Source of the DNA: a virus
Lineage: Duplodnaviria; Heunggongvirae; Uroviricota; Caudoviricetes
Strand: one strand, 5' to 3'
IMG/VR virus record: IMGVR_UViG_3300010413_000002
Coordinates: 1-64,000 of that record
Length of the DNA: 64,000 nucleotides
Shown: piece after piece, positions 474 through 64,000 of the stretch
Layout: every line of letters begins with the position of its first letter
Position numbering within the stretch: the stretch's first letter is position 1
Translations under genes and position numbers: made by a program
Notes under the pieces: generated by a model
Seen by the model: only the letters and a program-made list of their open reading frames with translations
The model's database searches: none
What the model was told of the DNA's origin: nothing

Positions 474-1221
474 AATTCCTCTTTTTATATTGAATATGTT
501 CTTTAAGAATTTTTTGCCAACGTTTTGGTTTTTTTCCTAATTCCCATCTTGGATCTAAAACTAAATCATCATATAAATCTAATATTTCTTTTTTAACTTC
601 TTTGATAGCTTCATTTTCATCTTTATCCCAACAAACTATACCTAATTCTTTTAAGGAAACACTGCATTCTTTACCATTAGAATTTAATTCTATCGTTACA
701 ACAAAAGGTTTTTTTAAAATATAATTTTCTTCATCTAATGAAGATATTTTTCTAAAAATTTTTATACATCCATTGTTCATTATTAAAAATTTAAAACTTG
801 AAAATTCTTTTTCTTTATTTCTTTTTTTAAAAACATATCTATTTTTTTTATGATTGAATTCGTCTATTTTCCATTTGTTTGCATCAATTTCAAAACTTTC
901 TATATAGTAATTAGGTAAAATAATTTTTTTTACTTCTTCGTCTTTTAATTTATTTTCTTTTTTAGGTTCTTTTAAAAATTCTTTTATTGAGACCTCTCTA
1001 CAAATTACTGGACAATCATCGAAAATTCCGAAAAATGGCATTGCCCAATGTTGACATATATATGTAAATCCATATTTTAATCTATCGTAATTAAAGAGTA
1101 TATCATGAGGATAAAAACCTAATCTTTTAAATTTATTTTTTATTTTATTGAATTTTCTTTTACTGATATTTTTTGGTAATTTAATATATTTACATCTAAA
1201 ATCCTTTTTTGTTAATATCAT
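442..1221 (-). CDS. Hypothetical protein; member 1 of a three-member paralog family (N-terminus MI-TKKDF).
   Basis: 259-aa ORF. Its ATG overlaps the Rnl2 stop (ATGA overlap at 1218-1221). It shares an N-terminal ~80-aa domain with 26748-27218 and 31212-31799 (MIxxTKKDF..., LPKN-S-K-FNKIKNKF, (V/I)S(I/V)(K/E)(E/D)FL). Confidence 0.6.
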   Translation of the reverse strand: MILTKKDFRCKYIKLPKNISKRKFNKIKNKFKRLGFYPHDILFNYDRLKYGFTYICQHWAMPFFGIFDDCPVICREVSIKEFLKEPKKENKLKDEEVKKIILPNYYIESFEIDANKWKIDEFNHKKNRYVFKKRNKEKEFSSFKFLIMNNGCIKIFRKISSLDEENYILKKPFVVTIELNSNGKECSVSLKELGIVCWDKDENEAIKEVKKEILDLYDDLVLDPRWELGKKPKRWQKILKEHIQYKKRNYEITCNKRRS

Positions 1222-2198
1222 TCTCTTTCCTTAAATGTATCAAAGAACAAATCTTTTATAAGTTCTACTGATTTTTTGTTAATAATTTTTGTAATTCTGC
1301 TTTTCTCTTCGTTGCTTACTGATTTTATATCTATTTTATCATCTTTTGCATCATTTAGCAAGTCTTTTACAAACCTTCCTAAGAATATGCCGAAGTCTTT
1401 TTTGGTATATTGTTCTTTAGAAAATACAGCATCAAACCTGTTTTCGGTAATATAGCTTGATAAATTAGATATTAGTTCATTAGCTTCTTGGCTTAATTCT
1501 TTAAGTTTAATTTTAATTTTTTTGCCTTTTTCTGAAAACTTTTTATTTTTATTTTTGATTATTACTCTGCTTCCACCATTAGTAGTATAGTCCCCTTCAA
1601 AAGGTTTGATAACTGTTCCTTCACAAGTATTATTCTCAACAATTGGCAATCCATTCAATAAAGGAATCATACTATCAAAATCATTTGGATACTCCAAAAC
1701 TTCCTCTAAAGTTCCTATTTTTAAAGGTTCTAAGTAAGGAATTTTAAATTCTTTGAAGATTTCAATTGCTTCTTTATAAGCTATAAATTTATCATCTATT
1801 TTTAAATCAAAAAATACAACGTTTATATATTTGCTATATTGTATTCCTTTTTGGACTCTTAATTCTAAAGTCTCATTATTCCAAAGACCTCCGTATATTT
1901 CTCCATATATTATGATTGGTTTTTTGTATTTTTCATATATTTGTTTTATGTTGTCTTCGTATTTAGGAAGAACATTATGAGAATTATAAAAACTTCCTCG
2001 TATAAAAGAGGAACGGTTTCCATAATCAAAACCTTCTTCATCATAATAAAGCAAGATGTTAGCTCCGTGTACTTTTTCAGTGGCACACCACTTTTCTTCT
2101 TTTGGAACTAAATATTCAGCTTGGCATAATAAACTCTTGTTAGATATTTGTTTTATACTTGAATATTCTTTAAATTTTTCTTTTTTCATTTTTTCCAA
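1218..2198 (-). CDS. ATP-dependent RNA ligase, T4 Rnl2 family.
   Basis: Motif I KVHGAN (ATEKVHGANILLYY), motif IV EGTVIKP, motif V RVIIKNKNKKFSEKGK and N-terminal KEYSS all match T4 Rnl2 (EKIHGTN, EGYVLKP, RVAIKCKNSKFSEKKK). Confidence 0.85.
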   Translation of the reverse strand: MEKMKKEKFKEYSSIKQISNKSLLCQAEYLVPKEEKWCATEKVHGANILLYYDEEGFDYGNRSSFIRGSFYNSHNVLPKYEDNIKQIYEKYKKPIIIYGEIYGGLWNNETLELRVQKGIQYSKYINVVFFDLKIDDKFIAYKEAIEIFKEFKIPYLEPLKIGTLEEVLEYPNDFDSMIPLLNGLPIVENNTCEGTVIKPFEGDYTTNGGSRVIIKNKNKKFSEKGKKIKIKLKELSQEANELISNLSSYITENRFDAVFSKEQYTKKDFGIFLGRFVKDLLNDAKDDKIDIKSVSNEEKSRITKIINKKSVELIKDLFFDTFKERE

Positions 2199-5578: not shown

Positions 5579-6406
5579 TTACTCCTTAATCATCATAAGA
5601 TTTTGATTTCCTAAAACGTGAGTTGGTAATACCCCGTCCCACTTTTGTATCCATTCTTGTTGAACTTCTAATTTCTTTTTTTCAACTAAAGCTGGGTTGT
5701 TTTTTAACGCCATTCCTCTTACTCTATCTTGTTCAGCTTTTAATTTTGCTATTTCAAGTTTAGCTTTTTCCTCTCTGACTTCATTTTCTCTTTGCTGAGC
5801 TTTTTGAGTTTGTTTTATTTTTTCGTTTATACTTTCAACAACCGACTCTGGAAATCTTATATTTCCTAAATAAGATATTTTTTCAATAATTATTCCCAAA
5901 GGTTTCATTTGTTCTCTGACTTCATTTTCGACAGCATCTAACAACTCAGTTTTATTTTCGTTAATTTCTTGGACTTCCATTTTTGAAGCTTTAGAAACAA
6001 TAGTATCTCTAACAATATTTCTTAAATATTTATCAGTAATCTCTCCAATTCCTTCTCTGTATTTTTGAAAAAGTAAATTTATTTTATCTTTTTCTAAAGA
6101 ATAACTTATACCAATATCCACATTGCAAGGCATTCCTTGTTTAGATTGAAAAGAAATACTTTCATCGTTTTTACTACCTTCTGTTGAACCTAAAGTCCAA
6201 TTATAAGTTTGAGTAAAAGTTGGAAATAAATACAATTCTTCATTTATTCCAATCCAATATCTTCCAACTCCTAATTCTTCAGTTTCAACTCCTTTTGAGT
6301 TTCCTAATAAATTAACTTTAACACCAACATATCCAGCAGGAACTTTAGAGCAAGCTGAAATACTTAATGCTAATAATGAACAAGCTAAAATTTTTTTCAT
6401 TTTCAT
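5579..6406 (-). CDS. SPFH / band-7 (prohibitin/HflK-like) domain lipoprotein.
   Basis: Signal peptide with lipobox LSISAC. SPFH-like core and a C-terminal coiled coil (QKAQQRENEVREEKAKLEIAKLKAEQ). Confidence 0.65.
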   Translation of the reverse strand: MKMKKILACSLLALSISACSKVPAGYVGVKVNLLGNSKGVETEELGVGRYWIGINEELYLFPTFTQTYNWTLGSTEGSKNDESISFQSKQGMPCNVDIGISYSLEKDKINLLFQKYREGIGEITDKYLRNIVRDTIVSKASKMEVQEINENKTELLDAVENEVREQMKPLGIIIEKISYLGNIRFPESVVESINEKIKQTQKAQQRENEVREEKAKLEIAKLKAEQDRVRGMALKNNPALVEKKKLEVQQEWIQKWDGVLPTHVLGNQNLMMIKE

Positions 6407-6667: not shown

Positions 6668-7990
6668 TTAAATTAGATTTTTTCTTATAAAACTTAATAA
6701 ATCTTCTTTGTTGTTTTCAACTTTATCATCAAGAACTGCATTAAATAATTCTTGTAGAATAAATCCTATAATTTTATGTCCTTTTTTTAATCCAATAAGT
6801 TTCATTATATCGTTTCCATTAATATTTAAATCTTTTACAGAAAATGCTGGAATATAGTTTTTTACTTCATTTATTCTTTTTAAAATTGTTTTCCAGTAGC
6901 TTAATTTCTTTAACCTTTTCTTTCTGTTTGCTTTTCTATCAGCTATTTTTAATCTAAGAATATCCTTATAATTAACATTGTCATTTTCTAATGCTACTAA
7001 CCATCTTCTTATAGCTTTGTCTTTACTTGTTGGCATTATGTGCCACATATGAAGCTTTATAATATTGCATACTTTGTCTATAAATTCATTACTGAATTTT
7101 AAATTTAATAAAGTTTGTTTTGCATAACTACAACTATATTTTTCGTGATTATGAAATATTAATTTATCGTTTTTTATTTGAAACTTACTTTTGCCTACAT
7201 CGTGTAGCAATCCCGCCATTTTTACTATAGGATATTTACTAGAAATATAAGAACAAGTATCTAAACAATGTTCATAAACTGTTTCATTATGATGTTCTCC
7301 GCCATCTAAATACTTAATCTTTTTTAAACAAGGAAAAACAGTTCCAAGAATTCCTGTTTTATCTAAATAAATACAAAATTGCTTTAAGTTCTTGATGGAT
7401 TTTATTATTTCTTTATTTATTCTTTCTTTAGGAATCGACTTTATTCTTTTTTTAGAACCGCTTTTTTTCAAAAGTTCTTTTAAACTAGAGTCTTCTATTT
7501 CAAAATTTAGAATTGAAGCAAATCTAAAAGCTCTTAATATTCTTACTGGATCTTCTTTTATTCTTTCAGAAGGTTTTCCTACAAATTTGATTAGTTTATG
7601 CTGTATATGACTTTGTCCTCCAAAATAATCAAAATATTCATCCTTGAAAGGATCATAAGCTATTGCATTTATTGTAAAATCTCTTCGACTACAATCTTCT
7701 TTTAGTGTTTCAACGTAATTACAAACTGGTTTTCCTATAATATCGTATCTTTCTCCTCGAAAAGTTGCGACTTCAATTCCATCTACGAGCATCACTTTAA
7801 ATTGTTCTCCTACGTGAGAAAGTTTTCTATCTTTGAATATTTGTTTTATTTTGTTTGGTTTTGCGTTTGTAACAATATCATAATCTTTTGGTTCTAAACC
7901 AAGAAGTTTGTCTCTGGTGCAACCGCCTATGAAAAAAGCTTGATAACCTTTGTTTTGAAGTATTTTTATGATTTCAAGTTCTTTTTTCAT
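6668..7990 (-). CDS. cca: CCA-adding enzyme (tRNA nucleotidyltransferase) with C-terminal HD domain.
   Basis: FFIGGCTRDKLLGLEPKDYDIVT (pol-beta nucleotidyltransferase head, GGxxRDxLLGxxxxDxDxxT) and LLHDVGK (HD motif). Confidence 0.8.
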   Translation of the reverse strand: MKKELEIIKILQNKGYQAFFIGGCTRDKLLGLEPKDYDIVTNAKPNKIKQIFKDRKLSHVGEQFKVMLVDGIEVATFRGERYDIIGKPVCNYVETLKEDCSRRDFTINAIAYDPFKDEYFDYFGGQSHIQHKLIKFVGKPSERIKEDPVRILRAFRFASILNFEIEDSSLKELLKKSGSKKRIKSIPKERINKEIIKSIKNLKQFCIYLDKTGILGTVFPCLKKIKYLDGGEHHNETVYEHCLDTCSYISSKYPIVKMAGLLHDVGKSKFQIKNDKLIFHNHEKYSCSYAKQTLLNLKFSNEFIDKVCNIIKLHMWHIMPTSKDKAIRRWLVALENDNVNYKDILRLKIADRKANRKKRLKKLSYWKTILKRINEVKNYIPAFSVKDLNINGNDIMKLIGLKKGHKIIGFILQELFNAVLDDKVENNKEDLLSFIRKNLI

Positions 7991-27974: not shown

Positions 27975-28402
27975 AAGATTTTAAGTTGTGTTATATTGAA
28001 GGAAATTTTGCTTATTTTACTACGCAAGATTTAGATAAGCAAACTGGAGATGATTGGAACGATGCTCCTTATGATCTCAATGCTGGAGAACCATATACTC
28101 CAACTATTTATTATCCCTCTGGAAAAAAAGATCCTAGAGATTGGACAAATGGAAAACCAAATTGGGAAATTAAAAAATTAGTTTGGGAAGGAGATTTTGA
28201 CGAAGCGAAAAATATTTATATGGAAGATATAAATTGTATTTATTGTGTAGATGATATAAATAACAAAAAAGTTCCTTGGTTAGAATATCAAGGATATTCT
28301 AATGAAGATCTTGAGATTAAAATATGGGCAGGATGTTCAATTAAAGAGTTTAAAAAATTAATTAAAAAAGGCGGTGGAAAAATTTATGTGGAGGAAAAAT
28401 GA
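27971..28402 (+). CDS. Hypothetical protein.
   Basis: 143-aa ORF. Confidence 0.45.
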   Translation: MKDFKLCYIEGNFAYFTTQDLDKQTGDDWNDAPYDLNAGEPYTPTIYYPSGKKDPRDWTNGKPNWEIKKLVWEGDFDEAKNIYMEDINCIYCVDDINNKKVPWLEYQGYSNEDLEIKIWAGCSIKEFKKLIKKGGGKIYVEEK

Positions 28403-30966
28403 AAACTAAATTAAATATAGTATATGTCTTAGTAGGACCAACATCTTGTGGAAAAAGTTATTTTTGTAACGAAATGAAACAAAAGCTTACTAAACAAGGA
28501 TTAAGAACCGTTATCTTATCTTCTGATGAAGAAAGAAGAAATACATTTGGCGAAAATCTCCATAAATACAATAAACAAATGCTTCAGTCAAGCGAAAAAG
28601 CATTTAATATCTTATATTATAAATTGGAACAATTAATGAAATATCCTAATAGACCTCATTTTATATTTGTTGATACTACAGGTTTATCAGAAGATTTTAG
28701 AAACGATATTATCAATATAGTAAAAAAGACAAATTATAACCTTGGTCTTATTGTATTTACATATAAAGAAAAGTCTGAATACTATAAACACATCTCAGAA
28801 GAAGACTTAGAAAAAGGTAAACATATTATAGATAGACATATAACAAGATTAAAGAAAGACGTATTTAAAACACTTTCTAAGAAAAAATATAATTTTTGTC
28901 ATAATATAACTGAAAAAGATTTTTCAAATATAAAGTTTGAAATTGAAGATTTAGACTTATATAAATCAACCTTTTTAACAGATAAGGAAAATTATCTTGT
29001 TATAAGCGACATTCATGGACATTTTGATGAATTTAAGAAATTATTAGAATTGAACGAAATCAAAATAGAAAAAGACAGGATAGCTTCCTCCCCCTATAGC
29101 AAAATAATAATAAATGGGGATACAATAGATAAAGGTAAGCAAAGCAAAGAAGTCTTAAAGTTTCTTTTAAACAACAAAGAACATTTTAGGTTTGTCATAG
29201 GAAATCACGAAAATTTTATATATAAGTATCTAAAAGGAGAAATAGATATTAATAAGTTGAATAAGGAAATTTTAAAACAGTTTTCTTCAGCGGAGCAATA
29301 TAAAGACGATAAAGAGTTTTTTTTATTGTTGGAAGAATATATAAATTTATGCGTTCCTTTCTTACAGAACAGTTATTTTATAGTAAATCATGCTCCTTGC
29401 AAAAATAAGTATTTAGGATTGCTAAACTTTAAGTCTTTAAAGAAACAAAGAAACTACTTTATAAACGATAGAGAAAAAGCTTTAGAAGAATTAAGGTTTG
29501 TACAAGAACAAAGTCGAGGTAACTACCCACTTCATATATTCGGGCATATTGCAGTTAAGAAAGTTTCAAAAATAAAGAATGAGATTTTTACAGATACTGG
29601 TGCTGGAAATAATCAAAAATTAACTGCTTTAGAATTATCTTACAAAGAATTTAAGGACTCATATTATACAAAAAACATATCGGTCGATTGCGAAGGAGAA
29701 CCCAAACAAGAAGGTTTAGAAATAGAAAAAAAGAAAGAAGTAGATTTTGACCTATTAGAACCAAAAGAAAGAGGAAGAATTTATTGGGCAATAGATAACA
29801 AAGTTCAATTCATATCAGGTACAATGCCTCCTTCTGCTTCAAGTGATGAATATGGATTAGAAAGTTTAGAAACTGCTATATCCTACTTCGAAAGTAAAGA
29901 CTACAAATTAGAAGATTTAGTATTCCAACCAAAGTATATGGGATCAAGATGTACGCTTTATCTAAATAGAGACATTGAAAAGTGTATGATGACTTCAAGA
30001 AAGGGCTATAGGATTAGGCGTTTATATGATAAAAACGGAGAAGAGATTACTGATTTTGTTGAAATATATAACAAATTTTTAGCAAAACCAAAACTAAAGA
30101 AACTATTAGAAGACGAAACAATAGAAACTATTGTTTTAGATGGCGAACTAATGCCTTGGTATGCTCTAGGAAGAAATCTAATAGAAAACACCTATGAAAA
30201 AGTTGCTGATTGCATAGAAAATGAACTAGAACTTTTAAAGGAAACTAATTTTGAAGAAGCTTTAAGTAAAGTTGATAAAGCATACAAAGATTTTAATTTT
30301 GAAGAACGACATAAAAACGAAAAAGCTAAAGATTTAGAAGCTGAAATAGGATACACTATCTATAAAACTTTTTTAAATTATAAGAATAGCAATTTTGCTC
30401 CTTTAAAAGATGTTGAAAGTAATTTAAAAGAATTTAAAAATCAAATAAGCCTATATGGCTCTAAAGAGGAAATAGATTATAAACCTTTTGATATGCTTAA
30501 AATTATTTACAAAGACGGAACTGAAAAAGTTAAAAATCCAAAAAAGGATAGTTCGCATGATGTTTTTTGGAAAGTAAATAGTAATGGATGCCAAAAATTC
30601 TCCAAAATAGAAGAATTAAAAGAATGGTATGAAATTATAACTAAAGATTTAAAATTAGAGGGCTGTGTGATTAAACCAGAGTTCTTAAAAGATGATTGTA
30701 TACCTTATATGAAAGTTCGTAATCCTAGGTACTTAAAATTAATCTACGGATATGATTATGATGATAAGGATAACTTAGAATATCTAATTAGAAACAAAAG
30801 AACAAAAAAGAAATGTCAAGTTGCAATAGAACAATTTAAATTGGGGCTAAAGTTGTTAAATTTCAAGGTAGACGAAATTACTAAAGAAAACGAGGACTAT
30901 AAACAAACTGTTGCCAAAATAATCTTTGAGGAAAAGAAAGAGACTGAAATTGACCCAAGATTGTAA
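28399..30966 (+). CDS. Trifunctional Pnkp-like RNA-repair enzyme: 5'-OH polynucleotide kinase, metallophosphoesterase (2',3'-phosphatase) and C-terminal ligase-like domain.
   Basis: P-loop VYVLVGPTSCGKSYF at the N-terminus. Central calcineurin-type motifs ISDIHGH, INGDTIDKG, IGNHE. C-terminal region with KYMGSR (candidate KxxG adenylyltransferase motif I). 855 aa, the same domain order and size as bacterial Pnkp. Confidence 0.7.
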   Translation: MKTKLNIVYVLVGPTSCGKSYFCNEMKQKLTKQGLRTVILSSDEERRNTFGENLHKYNKQMLQSSEKAFNILYYKLEQLMKYPNRPHFIFVDTTGLSEDFRNDIINIVKKTNYNLGLIVFTYKEKSEYYKHISEEDLEKGKHIIDRHITRLKKDVFKTLSKKKYNFCHNITEKDFSNIKFEIEDLDLYKSTFLTDKENYLVISDIHGHFDEFKKLLELNEIKIEKDRIASSPYSKIIINGDTIDKGKQSKEVLKFLLNNKEHFRFVIGNHENFIYKYLKGEIDINKLNKEILKQFSSAEQYKDDKEFFLLLEEYINLCVPFLQNSYFIVNHAPCKNKYLGLLNFKSLKKQRNYFINDREKALEELRFVQEQSRGNYPLHIFGHIAVKKVSKIKNEIFTDTGAGNNQKLTALELSYKEFKDSYYTKNISVDCEGEPKQEGLEIEKKKEVDFDLLEPKERGRIYWAIDNKVQFISGTMPPSASSDEYGLESLETAISYFESKDYKLEDLVFQPKYMGSRCTLYLNRDIEKCMMTSRKGYRIRRLYDKNGEEITDFVEIYNKFLAKPKLKKLLEDETIETIVLDGELMPWYALGRNLIENTYEKVADCIENELELLKETNFEEALSKVDKAYKDFNFEERHKNEKAKDLEAEIGYTIYKTFLNYKNSNFAPLKDVESNLKEFKNQISLYGSKEEIDYKPFDMLKIIYKDGTEKVKNPKKDSSHDVFWKVNSNGCQKFSKIEELKEWYEIITKDLKLEGCVIKPEFLKDDCIPYMKVRNPRYLKLIYGYDYDDKDNLEYLIRNKRTKKKCQVAIEQFKLGLKLLNFKVDEITKENEDYKQTVAKIIFEEKKETEIDPRL

Positions 30967-37092: not shown

Positions 37093-37355
37093 ATTTCTAA
37101 AAAACTTCCCTTTTAAATTTTAATATATATAATATATCTTATGGCAATTTAAACGTTGTATATAATAGATGATATGGACACGGGAGCATTACCCGTCTCT
37201 TCCACCAATTGATTATAAGGGGGAGAAATAGATTTGACATACATTCAAAGATACAATCTTTGCTCAGAGTGATTTCTGTGAAAGTCAAAAAAATAACTGG
37301 AGAAGAAATTCTTTTAGCCGCCTAAAAATTCAAAATTTTAAGACGGAACGGTTTG

Positions 37356-37388
37356 GGAGAGCCGTTTTACCAAACTCTCCTTTGTTTT
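37356..37388. terminator. Bidirectional rho-independent terminator between convergent blocks.
   Basis: GGAGAG-ccgttttaccaaa-CTCTCC stem-loop followed by TTTGTTTT. It sits at the stop of the minus-strand tdk and downstream of the plus block. Confidence 0.5.
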
Positions 37389-48815: not shown

Positions 48816-48824
48816 TAATCCTCC

Positions 48825-49019
48825 TTAAAAAAATAAAATTATATGCACAATAGCAGAAACTACCATTATAATCTCTGAAAAAATCAATAATTTCCTATTT
48901 AACAAAATAATAGAAATAATTGTCATTCCTAAACCAATTAAGAACATATAGATACTAACTTCATTAGTATATAAAAAGTTTGCTAAAGTTTCTATCATAG
49001 AATTATTCTTTATTTCCAA
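48825..49019 (-). CDS. Small membrane protein.
   Basis: 64 aa hydrophobic. Downstream of promoter cassette copy B. Confidence 0.4.
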   Translation of the reverse strand: MEIKNNSMIETLANFLYTNEVSIYMFLIGLGMTIISIILLNRKLLIFSEIIMVVSAIVHIILFF

Positions 49020-49924
49020 AAATAATATGTAGTTTACTCATTGTTTTTTAAGTTTGTTAAAAGAATAATAGCAATAAAAATCTAGTATAAAAATATATCT
49101 CAATAATTTAATTAATCATAAAATTGCTATTACTCTTAAACTATACTATACAATATAAAAAATAATTGTCAAGTAAAATCCGACAGAAAAATAATTATTG
49201 GATTTTTCTTGTTTTTTAAAAAATTTTTTGTTATTCTTCTTTTGATTATTTTAGTTAATTATCTAAATATAGTAGCTTTTGTTTCTTGCACGTCTTATAA
49301 TTTCCATATTTGACTCCTTCAAAAGCTACTACTCTTCATAAAAAAATAAGATATTTTCACAGAAAAAATGTTAGTTATGACTTCCGTAATTTAAAAAATA
49401 TAGTAATATTAGAATAGAAATAATTATTTTCTTAGAGAAACTGGCTCGCCTGCAAAGCACAGAGAGAAAAAGAATCCAGCTACAACAGCTATTCTTTTGG
49501 TGTCGACATATAAGAGCCATAAGATAACATAAAAAAACTTATATGCCGACAAATGTTGAATGAGTAATTCTTTATTTTTATAAAAGATATTTTCTTTAAA
49601 GTCAAGCAAAAAATAAAAAAGCTCTTGAAAGAACATATTTGGCAATATCTCTTCTCTCAAAAGCCTTTTTTTCAGGACTTGATTATATACAACAGAGTCA
49701 TATATAACTTAATTATAAGTAATACTTTTTTAAAAGTCAAGAAATATTGAATATTTTTAAAAACTTAGGCTCTATTCCCGCTCTTGCTAAGGAGATAAAG
49801 CCTATATAAAAAATTTCAACAAACAAAATTGCAATGTATCATTCCTCTAATAAAAAGCATTTTTGTTTGCTATATAAATTATAGTATAAAGATTTTTAAT
49901 TGTCAAGAAAAATCATAAAAATAC

Positions 49925-49953
49925 TTGACACTTTCAAAAAAGTATTGTATAAT
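49925..49953 (+). promoter_or_regulatory. Perfect-consensus sigma70 promoter (TTGACA-17-TATAAT) firing rightward into a non-coding region.
   Basis: TTGACA 49925-49930, 17-nt spacer, TATAAT 49948-49953. Back-to-back with a leftward TTGACA-17-TATAAT promoter at about 49870-49898. Confidence 0.6.
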
Positions 49954-49959
49954 ATTATA

Positions 49960-50420
49960 AGTATAATAAGTAGCTCAGGGAAAGAGTTCTTGGTAGACAA
50001 GAGGGTCATAGGTTAAAGTCCTATCTTACTTATACTAGAAAGATAGATTAAAGATAGCCTTGAAGATTTTAAGAGTCAATCAGCGTTCAGTACAAACGCA
50101 TATCTTTCGCAGAATGGTACAAAGAGTTTAATAATTGAACACATTGGGTTAAAAATTACTACATTAAGCAAGAGATAACTACTCAGTAATTAAGTAGTAT
50201 TTGTTAGTAAATTTCACTAATTCTTTGTACCAAAAAAACTAGAGAGTAGCCAAAATGCTATATCCAAAAAGGAAACACAAGTATTAAAGGTAGTTGTAAA
50301 AAAAGTTTGATAAATAATGCAAAAACTACATTGTGAAGAAAATATTGCTTAAAGGTATCCTAAATCATTTAGTGCAAACTCGGCAGTATATTCCCTCTCT
50401 AGTTAAAAAACTAGACAATA
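49960..50420 (+). ncRNA. Candidate structured non-coding RNA (~450 nt) downstream of the consensus promoter.
   Basis: No ORF of 60 aa or more on either strand across 49661-50448. Long-range complementarity AAACTAGAGAG (about 50237) with CTCTCTAGTT (about 50398). Local hairpins ACTACT-cagtaatta-AGTAGT and TCTAGTT-aaaaa-AACTAGA. Confidence 0.35.
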
Positions 50421-50448
50421 AAGAAAAAATTATTTAAAATAAAATTTT

Positions 50449-61374: not shown

Positions 61375-61653
61375 TTAAGATTGTTCATTAATTTTTTCTT
61401 CCCACATTAGTTCATAGATATATTCCATAAACTTTTTAAAAGATTGTTTTTTTTGTTCTTCAAATCCAGTTGCTTCATCTATCATCTTTTCTAAAGGATT
61501 TTTAGCAAAACTTCCAAAATCTACACAATCTTTATTTTTTTCTAAAAACTCATCTTTTAATTCTTCAAATTCTTCTATTCTGTTATTTATTAAATAATTT
61601 ATATAAGAGGCTGTAAAAGCTTTATTTAATTCTTCATTTTCTGTTTTTTTCAT
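61375..61653 (-). CDS. Hypothetical acidic protein.
   Basis: 92-aa ORF. Confidence 0.45.
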   Translation of the reverse strand: MKKTENEELNKAFTASYINYLINNRIEEFEELKDEFLEKNKDCVDFGSFAKNPLEKMIDEATGFEEQKKQSFKKFMEYIYELMWEEKINEQS

Positions 61654-61871
61654 ATTTTTACCTTATATACTTAAAAATTAATACTAAAACTAATACAATA
61701 AACGCTATATAGCAAATAAATCCAATTTTAGTTTTAATTTTTTTTAATGATTTATTAATTTTTGATTTATTGTTAGTAATTTGTGGTCTTTCCATTTTAT
61801 GATTTTTATTTTAATTTTTTTTAATTATAATATATATTTTATAATTTTCAATATTTTTTTAAAAAAAATAT

Positions 61872-61899
61872 TTGACTTTTATATTTTTTGTTCTATAGT
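61872..61899 (+). promoter_or_regulatory. Sigma70-type promoter (TTGACT-16-TATAGT) upstream of the tRNA-like cluster.
   Basis: TTGACT 61872-61877 and TATAGT 61894-61899, about 100 nt upstream of the first tRNA-like element. Confidence 0.45.
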
Positions 61900-62005
61900 T
61901 TATTCAATGGCAAAAGAAATTCCTATAAAAAAAATAATTTAGGTTTATTGATTATTTCTCGCCATGAAAATAAATAGACAAAAAAAGTTCCTATATATTA
62001 GGAAA

Positions 62006-62107
62006 ACAGGGGTACGATGGTTCAAATCCATCCGCTATCTTAAGATGGCGTGGCAGAGTGGTTATGCACCTGTGTGTATTACTTTTCGTCTATTAAAAAA
62101 ACACAGG
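62006..62107 (+). tRNA. tRNA-like element alpha with apparent permuted order. The 3' half (anticodon-stem 3' strand, variable loop, T-arm, acceptor 3' strand) lies upstream of its matching 5' half (acceptor 5' strand, D-arm, anticodon-stem 5' strand).
   Basis: 3' half 62006-62040: ACAGG-GGTAC-GATGG-TTCAAAT-CCATC-CGCTATC-T. TAA linker. 5' half 62044-62073: GATGGCG-TG-GCAG-AGTGGTT-ATGC-A-CCTGT. The acceptor strands GATGGCG and CGCTATC pair 7/7 (one G-U). CCTGT pairs with ACAGG. The extended stem 62069-62075 with 62101-62107 encloses a 25-nt loop. Confidence 0.4.
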
Positions 62108-62132
62108 AAGTTCCTATTTTAATGCTCGATAA

Positions 62133-62240
62133 GCAGGAGGTCGTAGGTTCGAGTCCTACCTTCCGCATTTGCGGTTGTAGCTCAGTTGGTAGAGCGCCTT
62201 TATGTACTTCCCGTTTTTATTAATGATAAAGGCAGTTCCT
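62133..62240 (+). tRNA. tRNA-like element beta. A canonical tRNA 3' half (62133-62167) is followed by a canonical 5' half (62171-62201), but the halves do not pair well with each other. Possibly a degenerate, split or trans-paired tRNA.
   Basis: 3' half GCAGG-AGGTC-GTAGG-TTCGAGT-CCTAC-CTTCCGC-A. 5' half GCGGTTG-TA-GCTC-AGTTGGTA-GAGC-G-CCTTT. Acceptor complementarity is only 5/7. An 8-bp stem GCCTTTAT / ATAAAGGC encloses a 22-nt loop. Confidence 0.3.
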
Positions 62241-62288
62241 ATAAATCGTTTCACAAAAGATTACTGCCCATCAAAACAAAGGAAAATT

Positions 62289-64000
62289 ATGAAAACTTTA
62301 AAATTATTTAATGCTGTTATATCAAAAGAAAATAAGACAGTAAAACCTTTTATTTCAACAAAAGGATATATTATTGAATCTAATGCTATGTGGGCAGTGA
62401 ATGATATTATAAAATTTTATGACGAACAAAGTCTAACAGGAAACGATTTAAACAAAACTTTTCATAAATCTTGGCAAAAAATAAAAGAAAGCACAAGATT
62501 TGAATTGTTTTTAGAACAAATACAACATTATATTTCTACCTATGGAAGTAATTTTAAAGATGAAATATATATTCCTAATGAAGTTTTGAACGTTCCAAAT
62601 TTAAAAATTATATTTAAAGTAATAAAAGCATACACAAAAGAAGAATTGATAGAAAAATGTCTATTTTTATTAAAGTCTGGTATAGCTTTAAAAGAAGAAA
62701 CAATAAATGATGTTCTTTCTATATTAGTTGATGAATTAAAATATGAATTTACAGGCAAAGAGGGAATAAAAAATAAAGAAGCTATTATAAAAATTGCTGA
62801 TTTATATAATGTACTTCCTCAGGATACAATGGAATTTTTCAGATATATTATATATCGTTCTACTGGACAATCTCTTTTAATTAAGAGTAATGACTTAATA
62901 GAAGCTATTAAGGACTCAAATTACAATCCTACAGCTCAATTTAATAAATTTGGACTAAAGAGACTATCGGAGATATTTAATAGGTTTAAACCTTTGTTTT
63001 TGGCGTTTAAAAAACATTGTCCATCGACAATAAATAAAATCGCTAAACTTTCAAAGAAATTTCATAAAGCTTTGGTACAAAACCCATTAAACAATGTAAC
63101 AAACAAATTGTTAAATTTAGAAGATTTACATTGGTTGGATAATGCTACAATTTATGCTTTATTTAAAGCTTTATCAGCTTGTTATTCAAGAAAAAATGGA
63201 CAAGATAGTTTTATTTATAAGATAAGAAATGGAAAATCTTGGGTAAAAGAAAACAAAATAAACACCGAAATTTGTGAGAAAAACTTTAAAAGTTTATTAG
63301 ATTATTTAAAAAGAAGAGTAAATTTAAAAGATAAAAAATTCTATTTGCCGAAAGACATTAAATTTGCTTTGCCAACTTCTGAAAAGATGTTTGTTGGTAA
63401 TATACCAGTTGGAAGTAAATTTTATGGAGAAAAACTAGCAGTAGGTATTTATTGGGAAGATAAATGGGGAGCAAGAGACTTAGATTTATCAGGAATTAAT
63501 ATTGATGGTAAAGTAGGTTGGAATTCGTCTTACAATCAAGGAATTGGTAGTTTAATGTATTCTGGAGATATAACTTCAGCACCAAATGGAGCTGTTGAAT
63601 ATTTATATGCTAATGAAGGATTAAATGAGCCAACTTTAGTTAAAAACAATGTTTATAATGGCAAAAATGATTGTGGATATAAAATTATAGTAGGAAAAGG
63701 AGATGAGATCACAAAAGACTACATGATGAATCCTAATAACTTATTTATGGAAGCAAAATGTAATTCTGTTCAAGTGCAAACAATTTTAGGAATTTTCTTA
63801 CCAGAAGAAAAAGGTCAATCTTTTGTGTTGTTAAACTTTGGTGCTGGACATATTAGAGTTTCTGGAAATTCTGAAATATCTAATATTGCCACAAAAGCTT
63901 TATTGCAACAATATAAAGATTTTATTTCTTTAAATGTAATATTGCCAAAACTTGGAGCAAAAATAGTAGAGGAATCAGAAGAGGCTGACTATGATTTAAG
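62289..64000 (+). CDS. Large hypothetical protein, partial (more than 570 aa; open frame runs off the window end).
   Basis: RBS AAAGGAAAA then ATG at 62289. Hand translation MKTLKLFNAVISKENKTVKPF... reached the window end with no stop. No plus-strand ORFs are listed here in the track, as expected for an unterminated frame. No recognisable motif. Confidence 0.5.
   Translation, partial: MKTLKLFNAVISKENKTVKPFISTKGYIIESNAMWAVNDIIKFYDEQSLTGNDLNKTFHKSWQKIKESTRFELFLEQIQHYISTYGSNFKDEIYIPNEVLNVPNLKIIFKVIKAYTKEELIEKCLFLLKSGIALKEETINDVLSILVDELKYEFTGKEGIKNKEAIIKIADLYNVLPQDTMEFFRYIIYRSTGQSLLIKSNDLIEAIKDSNYNPTAQFNKFGLKRLSEIFNRFKPLFLAFKKHCPSTINKIAKLSKKFHKALVQNPLNNVTNKLLNLEDLHWLDNATIYALFKALSACYSRKNGQDSFIYKIRNGKSWVKENKINTEICEKNFKSLLDYLKRRVNLKDKKFYLPKDIKFALPTSEKMFVGNIPVGSKFYGEKLAVGIYWEDKWGARDLDLSGINIDGKVGWNSSYNQGIGSLMYSGDITSAPNGAVEYLYANEGLNEPTLVKNNVYNGKNDCGYKIIVGKGDEITKDYMMNPNNLFMEAKCNSVQVQTILGIFLPEEKGQSFVLLNFGAGHIRVSGNSEISNIATKALLQQYKDFISLNVILPKLGAKIVEESEEADYDL

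What the first reader, a model, noticed from the sequence alone, without database searches (positions are those of the whole stretch)
61985..62250. tRNA-like cluster in which the 3' halves precede the 5' halves (apparent circularly permuted or split tRNA genes)
Downstream of a TTGACT-16-TATAGT promoter, a textbook tRNA 3' half (62006-62040) comes first. It reads ACAGG / GGTAC / GATGG-TTCAAAT-CCATC / CGCTATC / T.

Three nt later comes a textbook 5' half (62044-62073). It reads GATGGCG / TG / GCAG-AGTGGTT-ATGC / A / CCTGT. Its acceptor strand is fully complementary to that upstream 3' half (7/7 with one G-U). Its anticodon-stem strand CCTGT pairs with ACAGG.

The 5' half is then closed by a 7-bp stem around a 25-nt loop (62069-62107). 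A second unit follows with the same layout: 3' half 62133-62167, TTT, 5' half 62171-62201, then an 8-bp stem around a 22-nt loop. Its halves are mismatched. An AGTTCCTAT word recurs at about 123-nt spacing (61988, 62110, 62234).

No normal (5' then 3') tRNA can be assembled from this region. Permuted tRNA genes are known only from a few algae and archaea. Finding one in a phage-like element that also carries RNA ligases, Pnkp and a CCA enzyme would be remarkable. The ligases could even take part in maturation.
Basis: seen in the sequence. Interest (0 to 1): 0.85.

Follow-up and report, generated by a model that had tools for sequence, protein, structure and literature searches.

The report
Y-RNA-like tRNA mimics, not tRNAs
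The "backwards" tRNA halves are real, but they are the tRNA-shaped cores of two small Y-RNA-like RNAs; these belong to a widespread, apparently undescribed RNA family that always sits in front of one uncharacterised protein, often next to the RNA ligase RtcB.

Summary
At 62006-62073 and 62133-62201 a T arm and 3' acceptor strand precede the matching 5' acceptor strand and D arm, and no ordinary tRNA can be assembled.

The interpretation needs changing. Each unit is closed by its own 5' and 3' flanks, not by an anticodon loop. The flanks form a bulged helix with a conserved motif, AAA-NNNNG-UUCCUAU / UA-CNNNN-C. This is the layout of YrlA-type bacterial Y RNAs.

The window carries four such modules (61908-62273) behind one promoter: two simple hairpins and two with tRNA-like cores. 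Covariance models built only from other contigs find all four (E 1e-11 to 1e-23). Covariation across 28 relatives is very strong.

The modules lie upstream of one ~588-aa protein family in 110 of 112 loci (phages and Bacteroidota). That protein has no detectable Ro60/TROVE similarity. It has a TerD-like C-terminal domain, and RtcB is a recurrent neighbour. Sister RNAs with GUUCCUUCG sit in front of true Ro60 genes.

In Flavobacteriia the same tRNA-like unit occurs in the normal, unpermuted order, so the window form is a genuine circular permutation of a tRNA mimic. Function is inferred, not shown: a Ro60-independent RNA-repair or surveillance particle.

The parts
61872..61899 (+). Sigma-70-type promoter: TTGACT, 16-nt spacer, TATAGT. 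The predicted start lies a few nt before module A.
   Evidence: 10 of 12 consensus matches. Such matches are common in this AT-rich DNA, so function is inferred from position only.
61908..61964 (+). Module A, a simple hairpin module. Outer stem UGGC/GCCA, AAA bulge, stem AGAAA/UUUCU, UUCCUAU 61920-26, UA before the 3' strand, C bulge.
   Evidence: Model R2, built from 45 modules of other contigs, scores 48.4 bits, E 2.6e-11, full length. The MFE of the array folds it this way.
61976..62091 (+). Unit 1, a Y-RNA-like RNA with a tRNA-like core. Outer stem AGAC 61976-79 / GUCU 62088-91. AAA bulge. Stem AAAAG 61983-87 / CUUUU 62082-86. UUCCUAU 61988-94. Anticodon-like stem ACAGG 62006-10 / CCUGU 62069-73. 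Variable loop 62011-15. T arm 62016-32. Acceptor hairpin 62033-50 (7 bp, loop UUAA). U8 G9. D arm 62053-67.
   Evidence: Model R1, built from 28 non-window units, scores 81.5 bits, E 1.9e-18, positions 1-121 of 121. Sequence, MFE.
62099..62216 (+). Unit 2, same layout. Outer stem AAAC 62099-102 / GUUU 62213-16. ACA bulge. Stem GGAAG 62106-10 / CUUCC 62207-11. UUCCUAU 62111-17. Anticodon-like stem GCAGG 62133-37 / CCUUU 62197-201 (4/5). T arm 62143-59. Acceptor hairpin 62160-77 (5/7, loop AUUU). U8 A9. D arm 62180-95.
   Evidence: R1 scores 101.2 bits, E 1.6e-23, full length. Rfam YrlA scores 33.1 bits on 62135-62200.
62224..62273 (+). Leader module, a simple hairpin 15 nt before the start codon. 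Outer stem UGAU/AUCA, AAA bulge, stem GGCAG 62231-35 / CUGCC 62264-68, UUCCUAU 62236-42.
   Evidence: R2 scores 50.2 bits, E 7.7e-12. In 103 related loci the last module ends a median of 20 nt before the start codon; in 86 of those 103 it has the 3' signature C-AC, whereas the window's leader reads C-AU (the 'CAT' class, 3/103).
62289..64000 (+). Gene for the partner protein family, cut by the window end. The full-length identical protein P0001 is 588 aa: a helical/mixed N-terminal domain plus a TerD-like C-terminal domain.
62069..62107 (+). It competes with unit 1's anticodon-like stem and with unit 2's 5' stem.
   Evidence: Real complementarity. Absent from the array MFE and not conserved in relatives.
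62196..62233 (+). It competes with unit 2's anticodon-like stem and with the leader module's 5' stem.

Best explanation
**What it is.** Positions 61908-62273 form one transcription unit: a promoter, four RNA modules, then a protein gene.

**The module (shown).**
- Each module is a helix formed by its own 5' and 3' ends.
- The helix has a 3-4-bp outer stem, an A-rich 3-nt bulge opposite a single C, and a 5-bp stem ending in G-C.
- It then opens into an asymmetric loop that displays UUCCUAU on the 5' side and UA on the 3' side.

**The tRNA-like core (shown).**
- In units 1 and 2 a complete tRNA-like core sits inside this helix.
- Its order is anticodon-like stem, variable loop, T arm, a 7-bp acceptor stem closed by a tetraloop, then D arm.
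- That order is why the '3' half' is read before the '5' half'.
- The RNAs are tRNA mimics of the YrlA / Y-RNA type, not tRNAs. They have no anticodon loop.

**Also shown:** the fold, its covariation, family membership, and the near-obligate position upstream of one protein family.

**How it most likely works (inferred).**
- The downstream 588-aa protein binds the UUCCU helix of all four modules.
- The copy 15 nt before its own start codon gives feedback control of translation.
- The tRNA-shaped cores present a tRNA elbow and acceptor to tRNA-handling factors such as RNase P, the CCA enzyme, ligases or nucleases.
- The particle would then act as adaptor or decoy in RNA repair or surveillance during infection.
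- This would parallel Ro60-Y RNA particles, but with an unrelated protein.

**Origin of the permuted order (inferred).** It most likely arose by tandem duplication of an unpermuted tRNA-like unit, followed by loss of the outer halves.
For: **Fold and family**
- Covariation on 28 non-window units: 96% of cells paired against 66% in shuffles. 247 double-change cells against 70. Slid controls give about 40%. All 7 acceptor pairs and all 9 flank pairs covary.
- Within-unit against between-unit pairing: acceptor 6.77/7 against 3.39; flank stem 5/5 against 3.29.
- Models built without window sequences find all four modules at full length, E 1e-11 to 1e-23.
- The MFE of 61906-62290 gives four consecutive modules.

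**Link to the protein**
- 110 of 112 loci of the protein family have at least one module in the 800 nt upstream on the same strand. Density is 3.06 per kb there against 0.002 per kb elsewhere.
- The last module ends a median of 20 nt before the start codon.
- The same pairing is seen in Synechococcus phages S-CRM01, S-CBWM1 and gut phage Phass-1.

**Y-RNA kinship**
- Rfam YrlA gives partial hits.
- Permuted units with GUUCCUUCG lie directly upstream of TROVE+vWA genes and match R1 at full length, 50-71 bits.

**Repair context**
- RtcB lies next to the protein gene in two gene orders across several genera.
- The window also encodes an Rnl2-like ligase, Pnkp, a CCA enzyme and tmRNA.

**Both permutations exist**, and tandem units can be read in either frame.
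Against: - No expression, processing or binding data exist. The protein-RNA interaction rests on gene neighbourhood only.
- Rfam's YrlA model scores far below its cut-off (33 against 69 bits). The known Ro60-binding motif GNCGAA/CGAA is absent.
- Unit 2's acceptor has two U-U mismatches.
- The window-specific closing hairpins are statistically non-random and the model does not explain them.
- Covariation for the simple modules was measured on sequences selected for pairing, so only the pair-type diversity counts there.
Confidence: 0.8

Rival explanations
1. These are true circularly permuted tRNA genes. The transcript is circularised by a ligase and opened at the acceptor by RNase P and a 3' nuclease. 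The product is a decoding tRNA.
For: - The 3' half precedes the 5' half, with 7/7 acceptor complementarity in unit 1.
- Ligases, Pnkp and a CCA enzyme are encoded in the window.
- ARAGORN in intron mode calls tRNA-Tyr(gta) and tRNA-Asn(att) on artificially re-circularised units.
Against: - Joining the ends does not give a 7-nt anticodon loop. The ends form a conserved, covarying bulged helix.
- The same helix occurs alone, with no tRNA part, in hundreds of copies.
- The 'anticodons' are inconsistent, and the GUA is part of the conserved UA-C motif.
- There is no 3-4-3 BHB motif.
- In unpermuted relatives, removing the module hairpin would leave a loop of more than 20 nt.
Confidence: 0.03
2. 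The units are two-piece tRNA-like RNAs. The closed acceptor loop is cut by RNase P and trimmed, and CCA is added by the phage enzyme. Each unit then becomes two base-paired pieces with a free CCA end, as reported for Mycobacterium smegmatis YrlA. This extends the best explanation rather than excluding it.
For: [quoted passage not shown]
- The window encodes a CCA-adding enzyme at 6668-7990.
- Acceptor loops vary freely in length (4-18 nt) and sequence.
- The same phage has a two-piece tmRNA gene.
Against: - No CCA is encoded, and no conserved discriminator was seen.
- Unit 2's acceptor has two U-U mismatches.
- S. Typhimurium YrlA and D. radiodurans Yrn1 are not cleaved.
- There are no data here.
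Confidence: 0.25
3. The element is a purely cis-acting leader. The whole 61908-62273 array is the 5' UTR of the downstream mRNA and only regulates that gene. No free small RNAs are made.
For: - There is one promoter upstream, and no intrinsic terminator was predicted in 61650-62350.
- The array is always on the same strand, directly upstream.
- The last module lies 10-30 nt before the start codon.
Against: - In Phass-1 the modules lie about 1.3 kb downstream of the gene, next to tmRNA.
- S-CRM01 and L116 have extra units downstream of the gene.
- Loci hold up to 4 strict modules, or up to about 6 by eye, with different inserts. That exceeds what a feedback operator needs.
- Ro60-linked Y RNAs are likewise made from polycistronic precursors and then processed.
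Confidence: 0.12
4. The element is an ordinary tRNA with a long insertion (62044-62167), or decayed tRNA gene fragments left by recombination.
For: Rfam tRNA hit of 29.5 bits, just above the 29-bit cut-off.
Against: - The hit has 3 acceptor mismatches out of 7 and a 59-nt insertion.
- It leaves the other two halves orphaned.
- ARAGORN finds nothing.
- The permuted frames score 81-101 bits with an independent model.
- Strong covariation rules out pseudogenes.
Confidence: 0.01

Closest known systems
YrlA-type bacterial Y RNAs bound by Ro60/Rsr (Rfam RF02553; Chen et al. 2014, PMC4201824)
   Same: - The element order is the same: the 5'/3' ends pair into a bulged protein-binding stem that encloses a tRNA-like domain made of a variable region, T arm, closed acceptor-like stem and D arm.
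- Several RNAs per locus include plain hairpins and T-arm-only forms.
- They are encoded on the same strand next to the protein gene.
- RtcB is a neighbour.
- They occur in phages.
   Different: - The motif is UUCCUAU / UA-C instead of GNCGAA.
- The Rfam score is half the cut-off.
- The adjacent protein is not a TROVE/vWA protein. It is an unrelated family with a TerD-like domain.
- One module is a dedicated leader at the start codon.
- A normal-order (unpermuted) version of the tRNA-like unit also exists.
Circularly permuted tRNA genes of Cyanidioschyzon merolae, other algae and Thermofilum (from my own knowledge: Soma et al. 2007)
   Same: The 3' half is encoded upstream of the 5' half, with a few nt between the acceptor strands.
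   Different: - Those genes restore a normal anticodon loop through a BHB-dependent circular intermediate and decode codons.
- Here the ends form a conserved protein-binding-type helix, and there is no anticodon.
Two-piece (permuted) tmRNA, present in this same window at 37102-37383
   Same: - The gene order is permuted, with the T arm and 3' acceptor strand first.
- The acceptor may be opened by RNase P and CCA addition.
   Different: There is no G3-U70 pair, no tag reading frame and no pseudoknots. A full D arm is present.
Ro60-linked Y RNAs carrying GUUCCUUCG (found here upstream of TROVE genes in GC-rich, phage-like tRNA arrays)
   Same: - The permuted tRNA-like core is the same.
- GUUCCU sits at the same place after a 5-bp stem.
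- They match R1 at full length, 50-71 bits.
   Different: - They lack the AAA and C bulges, and have GUCC instead of UUAC on the 3' side.
- The partner is a true Ro60 ortholog.

Membership tests
Circularly permuted tRNA gene | 3' half upstream of 5' half on one strand, with complementary acceptor strands | tested here: met
   Unit 1 pairs 7/7 and unit 2 5/7.
Circularly permuted tRNA gene | Joining the unit's ends restores a 7-nt anticodon loop with a usable anticodon | tested here: not met
   The ends form a covarying bulged helix. ARAGORN needs 31-41-nt 'introns' and gives GTA and ATT.
Circularly permuted tRNA gene | Bulge-helix-bulge motif (3-nt bulge, 4 bp, 3-nt bulge) at the junction for a splicing endonuclease | tested here: not met
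   The junction is a 4-bp stem, a 3-nt/1-nt internal loop, a 5-bp stem and a large asymmetric loop. No endonuclease gene was identified among the 20 largest window ORFs scanned.
Ordinary (or intron-containing) tRNA | Called by standard tRNA finders in native order | tested here: not met
   ARAGORN gives 0 genes, also with -i on 61900-62300. Rfam gives 29.5 bits against a cut-off of 29, with 3 acceptor mismatches.
YrlA / Y RNA-like (RF02553) | tRNA-like domain in the order T arm, closed acceptor-like stem, D arm, enclosed by a stem of the 5' and 3' ends | tested here: met
YrlA / Y RNA-like (RF02553) | Score at or above Rfam's gathering threshold (69 bits) | tested here: not met
   Unit 2 scores 33.1 bits. 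Unit 1 is not reported at E up to 10.
YrlA / Y RNA-like (RF02553) | GNCGAA(N)G / CGAA Ro60-binding motif near the 5' end | tested here: not met
   The motif is G-UUCCUAU in all four window modules and in 226 relatives. The known motif is as described in PMC4201824 and PMC12135203.
YrlA / Y RNA-like (RF02553) | Encoded within about 4 kb of, and on the same strand as, a Ro60/TROVE gene | tested here: not met
YrlA / Y RNA-like (RF02553) | Bound by Ro60 in vivo | not testable with these tools
   Needs immunoprecipitation.
UUCCU-module RNA family (defined here by models R1 and R2) | Full-length match to a model built without the window | tested here: met
   R1 scores 101.2 and 81.5 bits. R2 scores 50.2 and 48.4 bits.
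UUCCU-module RNA family (defined here by models R1 and R2) | Located directly upstream, same strand, of a P0001-family gene | tested here: met
   In the window the array ends 15 nt before ATG 62289. The family rule holds in 110 of 112 loci.
Two-piece tmRNA | G3-U70 in the acceptor, tag reading frame, pseudoknots | tested here: not met
   Position 3-70 is U-A in unit 1 and G-C in unit 2. Rfam tmRNA models hit only 37102-37383.
Ro60/Rsr (for the protein) | TROVE HEAT-repeat ring plus vWA domain | tested here: not met

The most novel reading that the evidence does not exclude
The UUCCU-module RNAs and the downstream TerD-domain protein form a previously unrecognised, Ro60-independent counterpart of the Ro60-Y RNA particle. 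Phages and Bacteroidota would use it together with RtcB-type ligases.

In the permuted units the closed acceptor would be opened by RNase P and given CCA by the phage's own enzyme. The particle would then carry a two-piece, anticodon-less, tRNA-shaped arm that works as a decoy or adaptor for tRNA-targeting nucleases and repair enzymes during infection.
Probability: 0.2. Interest if true: 0.9.

Novelty: new variant of a known kind. Interest (0 to 1): 0.72.

Why it matters
**What would be new**
- Bacterial Y RNAs are so far defined by their partner, Ro60.
- Here the same RNA design (an end-to-end bulged helix plus a tRNA mimic) is tied to a different, uncharacterised protein family of more than 1800 members.
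- That family is found in Flavobacteriia chromosomes, cyanophages, a gut phage and many uncultured phages, often beside RtcB or inside tRNA arrays.

**Why it would matter if the protein binds these RNAs**
- Y-RNA-like particles would be broader than Ro60.
- It would give a handle on the still unclear function of bacterial RtcB operons, and on how large phages protect or exploit the tRNA pool.

**Other points**
- The two natural circular permutations of one tRNA-shaped RNA illustrate permutation by duplication. They show that the 3D shape is what selection sees, not the position of the ends.
- The unpermuted units score 42-61 bits with the Rfam tRNA model. They may be annotated as odd intron-containing tRNAs or pseudo-tRNAs.

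Tried and rejected
**tRNA tests**
- ARAGORN in default and intron modes on the native region found nothing.
- The direct join of the halves gives no tRNA. Only with the score threshold relaxed (-ps90) does ARAGORN report, for unit 1, an undetermined 65-nt 'tRNA-???' with a 2-nt 'anticodon'.
- The chimeric tRNA at 62044-62167 has a poor acceptor and leaves two orphan halves.
- The splicing idea (module hairpin as an intron removed with RtcB) fails. Excision would leave loops of 20 nt or more, and in some units only UUA separates the stem from the module.
- The junction geometry does not fit a BHB motif.
- A tmRNA-like reading fails: no G3-U70, tag or pseudoknots.

**Other RNA ideas**
- GAAGTTCCTATT resembles the 13-nt FRT repeat (from my own knowledge). 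I treated this as coincidence, because the word is the 5' strand of a covarying RNA helix.
- UUCCUAU fits the anticodon-loop consensus. Position 37 is only 90% A, and the Ro60-linked class has U there. I left this as an unexplained resemblance.

**Protein homology to Ro60**
- The afdb50 fold library was unavailable.

**Window relatives**
- DNA similarity to sequenced phages gave only a tRNA-like 67-nt match.
- DnaB and Pnkp gave no close phage relative, so the host is unknown.

**Literature**
- I found no paper on Y-like RNAs with a non-TROVE partner, on permuted tRNAs in phages, or on this protein.
- The Burroughs and Aravind 2016 survey of RNA repair systems and the 2020 Ro60 review could not be opened. 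A prior description cannot be excluded.

**Strict regex scan**
- In Markov resamples of the window the looser form of the scan (outer stem with a 2-4-nt 5' bulge; no C bulge required) gives 2.4 hits on average.
- I therefore did not rely on that scan alone for significance inside the window; the CM E-values carry it. The locus-wide count used a tighter version that also requires the C bulge.
Full report
**1. The observation**

- A TTGACT, 16-nt spacer, TATAGT promoter lies at 61872-61899.
- In unit 1 the order is: ACAGG, a 5-nt variable loop, a T arm, and the 3' acceptor strand CGCTATC (62006-62039). Then comes TTAA. Then the 5' acceptor strand GATGGCG, a D arm and CCTGT (62044-62073).
- Unit 2 has the same layout at 62133-62201, with two U-U mismatches in its acceptor.
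- AGTTCCTAT occurs at 61986, 62109 and 62234, against 0.58 copies expected in the whole window.
- ARAGORN finds no tRNA in the window.
- Rfam's tRNA model gives one borderline hit, 62044-62167 at 29.5 bits against a cut-off of 29. It joins the 5' half of unit 1 to the 3' half of unit 2 across 59 nt, with three acceptor mismatches.

**2. First lead away from tRNA**

In a permissive Rfam scan the best hit in the region is YrlA, the bacterial 'Y RNA-like' family. It covers unit 2's T arm, closed acceptor and D arm at 33.1 bits, E 2.3e-5 locally, against a cut-off of 69. YrlA RNAs are described as tRNA mimics in which the acceptor stem is closed by a loop and the RNA's ends pair to form the Ro60-binding stem (PMC4201824). 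That layout necessarily puts the T arm before the D arm.

**3. The downstream gene and its relatives**

- An open reading frame starts at 62289 and runs off the window. The identical full-length protein, P0001, has 588 aa.
- It has no Pfam, PHROG, NCBIfam or PDB-sequence match.
- It has more than 1800 homologs. Those in Chryseobacterium, Tenacibaculum, Aquimarina and other Bacteroidota chromosomes are 65-70% identical.
- Homologs at about 30-38% identity occur in Synechococcus phages S-CRM01 and S-CBWM1, where the gene is embedded in the tRNA array, and in gut phage Phass-1.
- In S-CRM01 a full-length, sub-threshold YrlA hit lies directly upstream of the homolog.

**4. The conserved module**

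Reading S-CRM01 beside the window showed that the 5 nt before each (A/G)UUCCU pair with 5 nt that follow a UA further downstream. The pairs differ from copy to copy:
- In the window: AAAAG/CUUUU, GGAAG/CUUCC, GGCAG/CUGCC, AGAAA/UUUCU.
- In S-CRM01: GAAAG/CUUUC, GGAAA/UUUCC, AGAAG/CUUCU.

I then fetched 119 loci encoding the protein family. Arrays of one to four such modules by the strict scan (up to about six by eye) precede the gene almost everywhere.

*Consensus from 226 distinct copies:*
- a 3-4-bp outer stem;
- an AAA bulge (76-91% A at each position);
- a 5-bp stem ending in G (92%);
- UUCCU followed by A (90%), U (85%), A (75%);
- a variable insert;
- U (92%), A (93%);
- a 5-bp strand starting with C (91%);
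- a bulged C (92%);
- the outer stem's 3' strand.

*Association with the gene:*
- 110 of 112 loci have at least one module in the 800 nt upstream on the gene's strand.
- Density is 3.06 per kb there against 0.002 per kb in the rest of the loci on both strands.
- The last module ends a median of 20 nt before the start codon and usually has C-AC instead of C-G after the stem.

*The insert can be:*
- a short hairpin;
- a T arm plus a hairpin;
- a complete tRNA-like core.

**5. Test of the fold for the window-type units**

*Collecting relatives:*
- A pattern scan of viral and metagenome contigs and a parser gave 31 curated permuted units.
- Twenty of the scanned loci carry a homolog of the protein next door.

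*Covariation on an alignment of 28 units, none from the window (A3):*
- The six-helix structure has 96% of cells paired, against 66% in shuffles and about 40% when partners are slid.
- It has 247 double-change cells against 70 in shuffles.
- Every acceptor pair shows 3-6 pair types.

*Independent models:*
- Model R1, built from that alignment, finds unit 2 (62099-62216, 101.2 bits, E 1.6e-23) and unit 1 (61976-62091, 81.5 bits, E 1.9e-18). Both match at full length.
- The 45 seeds were chosen for pairing, so their 100% pairing is by construction. Their diversity of pair types is not.

*Thermodynamics:* the minimum-energy fold of 61906-62290 (-90 kcal/mol) consists of exactly these four consecutive modules, with the T arms, acceptor hairpins and D arm in place.

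**6. The closing hairpins**

- They are real complementarities and unlikely by chance (15/5000 and 4/5000 shuffles).
- Each uses the D-side strand of the anticodon-like stem and the 5' flank of the next module, so each excludes the conserved fold.
- They are absent from the array's minimum-energy structure.
- They are not kept in the sister contig L121, whose protein is 76% identical.
- They are not kept in the other permuted units.
- I leave them unexplained. They could be an alternative conformer, a processing signal or a by-product of duplication.

**7. Not a tRNA**

- Joining the ends of a unit does not make an anticodon loop.
- ARAGORN calls the artificially re-circularised units only in intron mode. 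It then needs 41-nt and 31-nt 'introns' and reports unrelated anticodons, GTA and ATT. The GUA is part of the conserved UA-C motif.
- No bulge-helix-bulge motif is present.
- Excising the module hairpin from the unpermuted relatives would leave a loop of more than 20 nt.
- The acceptors lack G3-U70 and there is no tag frame, so the units are not tmRNA-like either.

**8. Both circular permutations exist**

- In Flavobacteriia chromosomes and several viral contigs the tRNA-like unit has the normal order. It runs: 5' acceptor strand, D arm, D-side stem, UA-CNNNN-CG, a small loop, AAA-NNNNG-UUCCUAU, V-side stem, T arm, 3' acceptor strand.
- There are 32 such units in 29 loci. Acceptor pairing is 6.84/7 within units against 4.02 between units.
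- ARAGORN calls none of them.
- Rfam's tRNA model scores them at 42-61 bits with an insertion of about 45 nt.
- Two tandem unpermuted units in L101 give an 84-bit 'permuted' R1 hit across their junction.
- In the window, the 5' half of unit 1 partly pairs with the 3' half of unit 2.
- This frame ambiguity is what permutation by tandem duplication and loss of the outer halves predicts. That origin is an inference.

**9. Relation to Ro60 systems**

- The pattern scan also recovered a GC-rich class with the same permuted core and G-GUUCCUUCG, lying inside tRNA arrays of phage-like contigs.
- The gene directly downstream of these is a TROVE+vWA protein, that is, a Ro60/Rsr ortholog, in all six proteins tested.
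- These RNAs match R1 at full length, 50-71 bits. None reaches Rfam's YrlA cut-off.
- The RNA family is therefore related to Ro60-linked Y RNAs in both layout and sequence signature.

The window's protein, by contrast, is not a Ro60:
- Profile-profile comparison with 11 TROVE proteins gives 0.1% probability.
- The N-terminal domain has no informative match.

**10. Context**

- RtcB is the one conserved neighbour of the protein gene outside simple synteny. It lies upstream on the same strand in about 55 Chryseobacterium loci. It lies downstream in Aquimarina, Algibacter, Winogradskyella and a Flavobacteriaceae MAG. This mirrors the known rsr-yrlBA-rtcBA arrangement (PMC4201824, PMC7790460).
- The window itself encodes an Rnl2-like RNA ligase (1218-2198), a Band-7 protein, a CCA-adding enzyme with an HD domain (6668-7990), a Pnkp-type kinase-phosphatase-ligase (28399-30966) and a two-piece tmRNA (37102-37383).
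- No close sequenced phage relative was found.

**11. Mechanism**

*Shown:* the fold, its conservation, the array organisation and the gene association.

*Inferred:*
- The protein binds the UUCCU helix.
- The start-codon-proximal copy gives feedback control.
- The tRNA-shaped cores engage tRNA-handling enzymes, so that the particle acts in RNA repair or surveillance.
- The 7-bp acceptor may be opened by RNase P and extended with CCA, as in M. smegmatis YrlA.

**12. Novelty and limits**

I found no description of these RNAs or this protein family in Rfam 15, Pfam, PHROGs, NCBIfam or the searchable literature. Two relevant reviews could not be read.

I rate it a new variant of a known kind. It is a Y-RNA/YrlA-type tRNA mimic with a different motif, a different partner protein and a natural pair of circular permutations.

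Noticed in passing
window 37102-37383 (+): A circularly permuted (two-piece, alpha-proteobacterial type) tmRNA gene. Rfam tmRNA_permuted scores 101.4 bits and alpha_tmRNA 98.9 bits. ARAGORN did not call it.
   Followed up: no
window 49964-50032 (+), within ORF-poor stretch 48816-50448: A tRNA-like cloverleaf (Rfam tRNA 33 bits in a local scan) with a 7/7 acceptor (ATAAGTA/TACTTAT) but only a 5-nt anticodon loop. It lies just after a perfect TTGACA, 17-nt spacer, TATAAT promoter. ARAGORN does not call it. The surrounding 1.6 kb has no long ORF and several strong promoter-like sites.
   Followed up: partly
window 1218-2198(-), 5579-6406(-), 6668-7990(-), 28399-30966(+): A set of RNA-repair genes: an Rnl2-like RNA ligase, a Band-7/SPFH protein, a CCA-adding enzyme with an HD domain, and a Pnkp-type kinase-phosphatase-ligase.
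   Followed up: partly
L325 9251-9370, L304 4179-4289, L216 5850-5960, L261 2264-2367 and others: A GC-rich class of permuted tRNA-like Y RNAs carrying GUUCCUUCG. They lie directly upstream of TROVE+vWA (Ro60) genes inside phage-like tRNA arrays. All score below Rfam's YrlA cut-off, so Rfam's model misses this Ro60-linked subclass.
   Followed up: partly
L040 2678-2798, L043 2650-2759, L101 2462-2575 and 2585-2701, L116 2642-2755: Unpermuted tRNA-like units of Flavobacteriia score 42-61 bits with the Rfam tRNA model despite a roughly 45-nt insertion in place of the anticodon loop. Annotation pipelines based on Infernal could label them as intron-containing tRNAs or pseudo-tRNAs.
   Followed up: partly
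L101 3-1695, L105 69-1861, L116 347-2132, L041 6986-7792; L001 and L002 throughout: The protein/RNA locus sits beside or inside arrays of 8-19 tRNA genes in several Flavobacteriia chromosomes and in cyanophages S-CRM01 and S-CBWM1.
   Followed up: no
L003 7461-7899 (Phass-1) and L023 4732-4988: A tmRNA gene lies immediately next to the modules or the protein gene in two viral loci. In Phass-1 four modules (7073-7446) directly precede the tmRNA and lie about 1.3 kb downstream of the protein gene.
   Followed up: no
L040, L044, L053, L056, L082, L105, L116, L119: about 100-300 nt upstream of the first module: A conserved palindromic word, ACTACGCAAAANNATTGCGYA, precedes the RNA arrays in different Flavobacteriia and Cytophagia genera. 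It may be an operator or promoter element.
   Followed up: no
L001 3788-3934 (S-CRM01 g173c, minus strand): The annotated 48-aa hypothetical gene g173c lies on the opposite strand across two of the RNA modules. It is probably a spurious call.
   Followed up: no
L116 4883-5014 (+): A further YrlA-like or permuted unit (Rfam YrlA 34.4 bits, R1 53.5 bits) lies downstream of the protein gene in Pontimicrobium. One locus can therefore hold both permutations.
   Followed up: no
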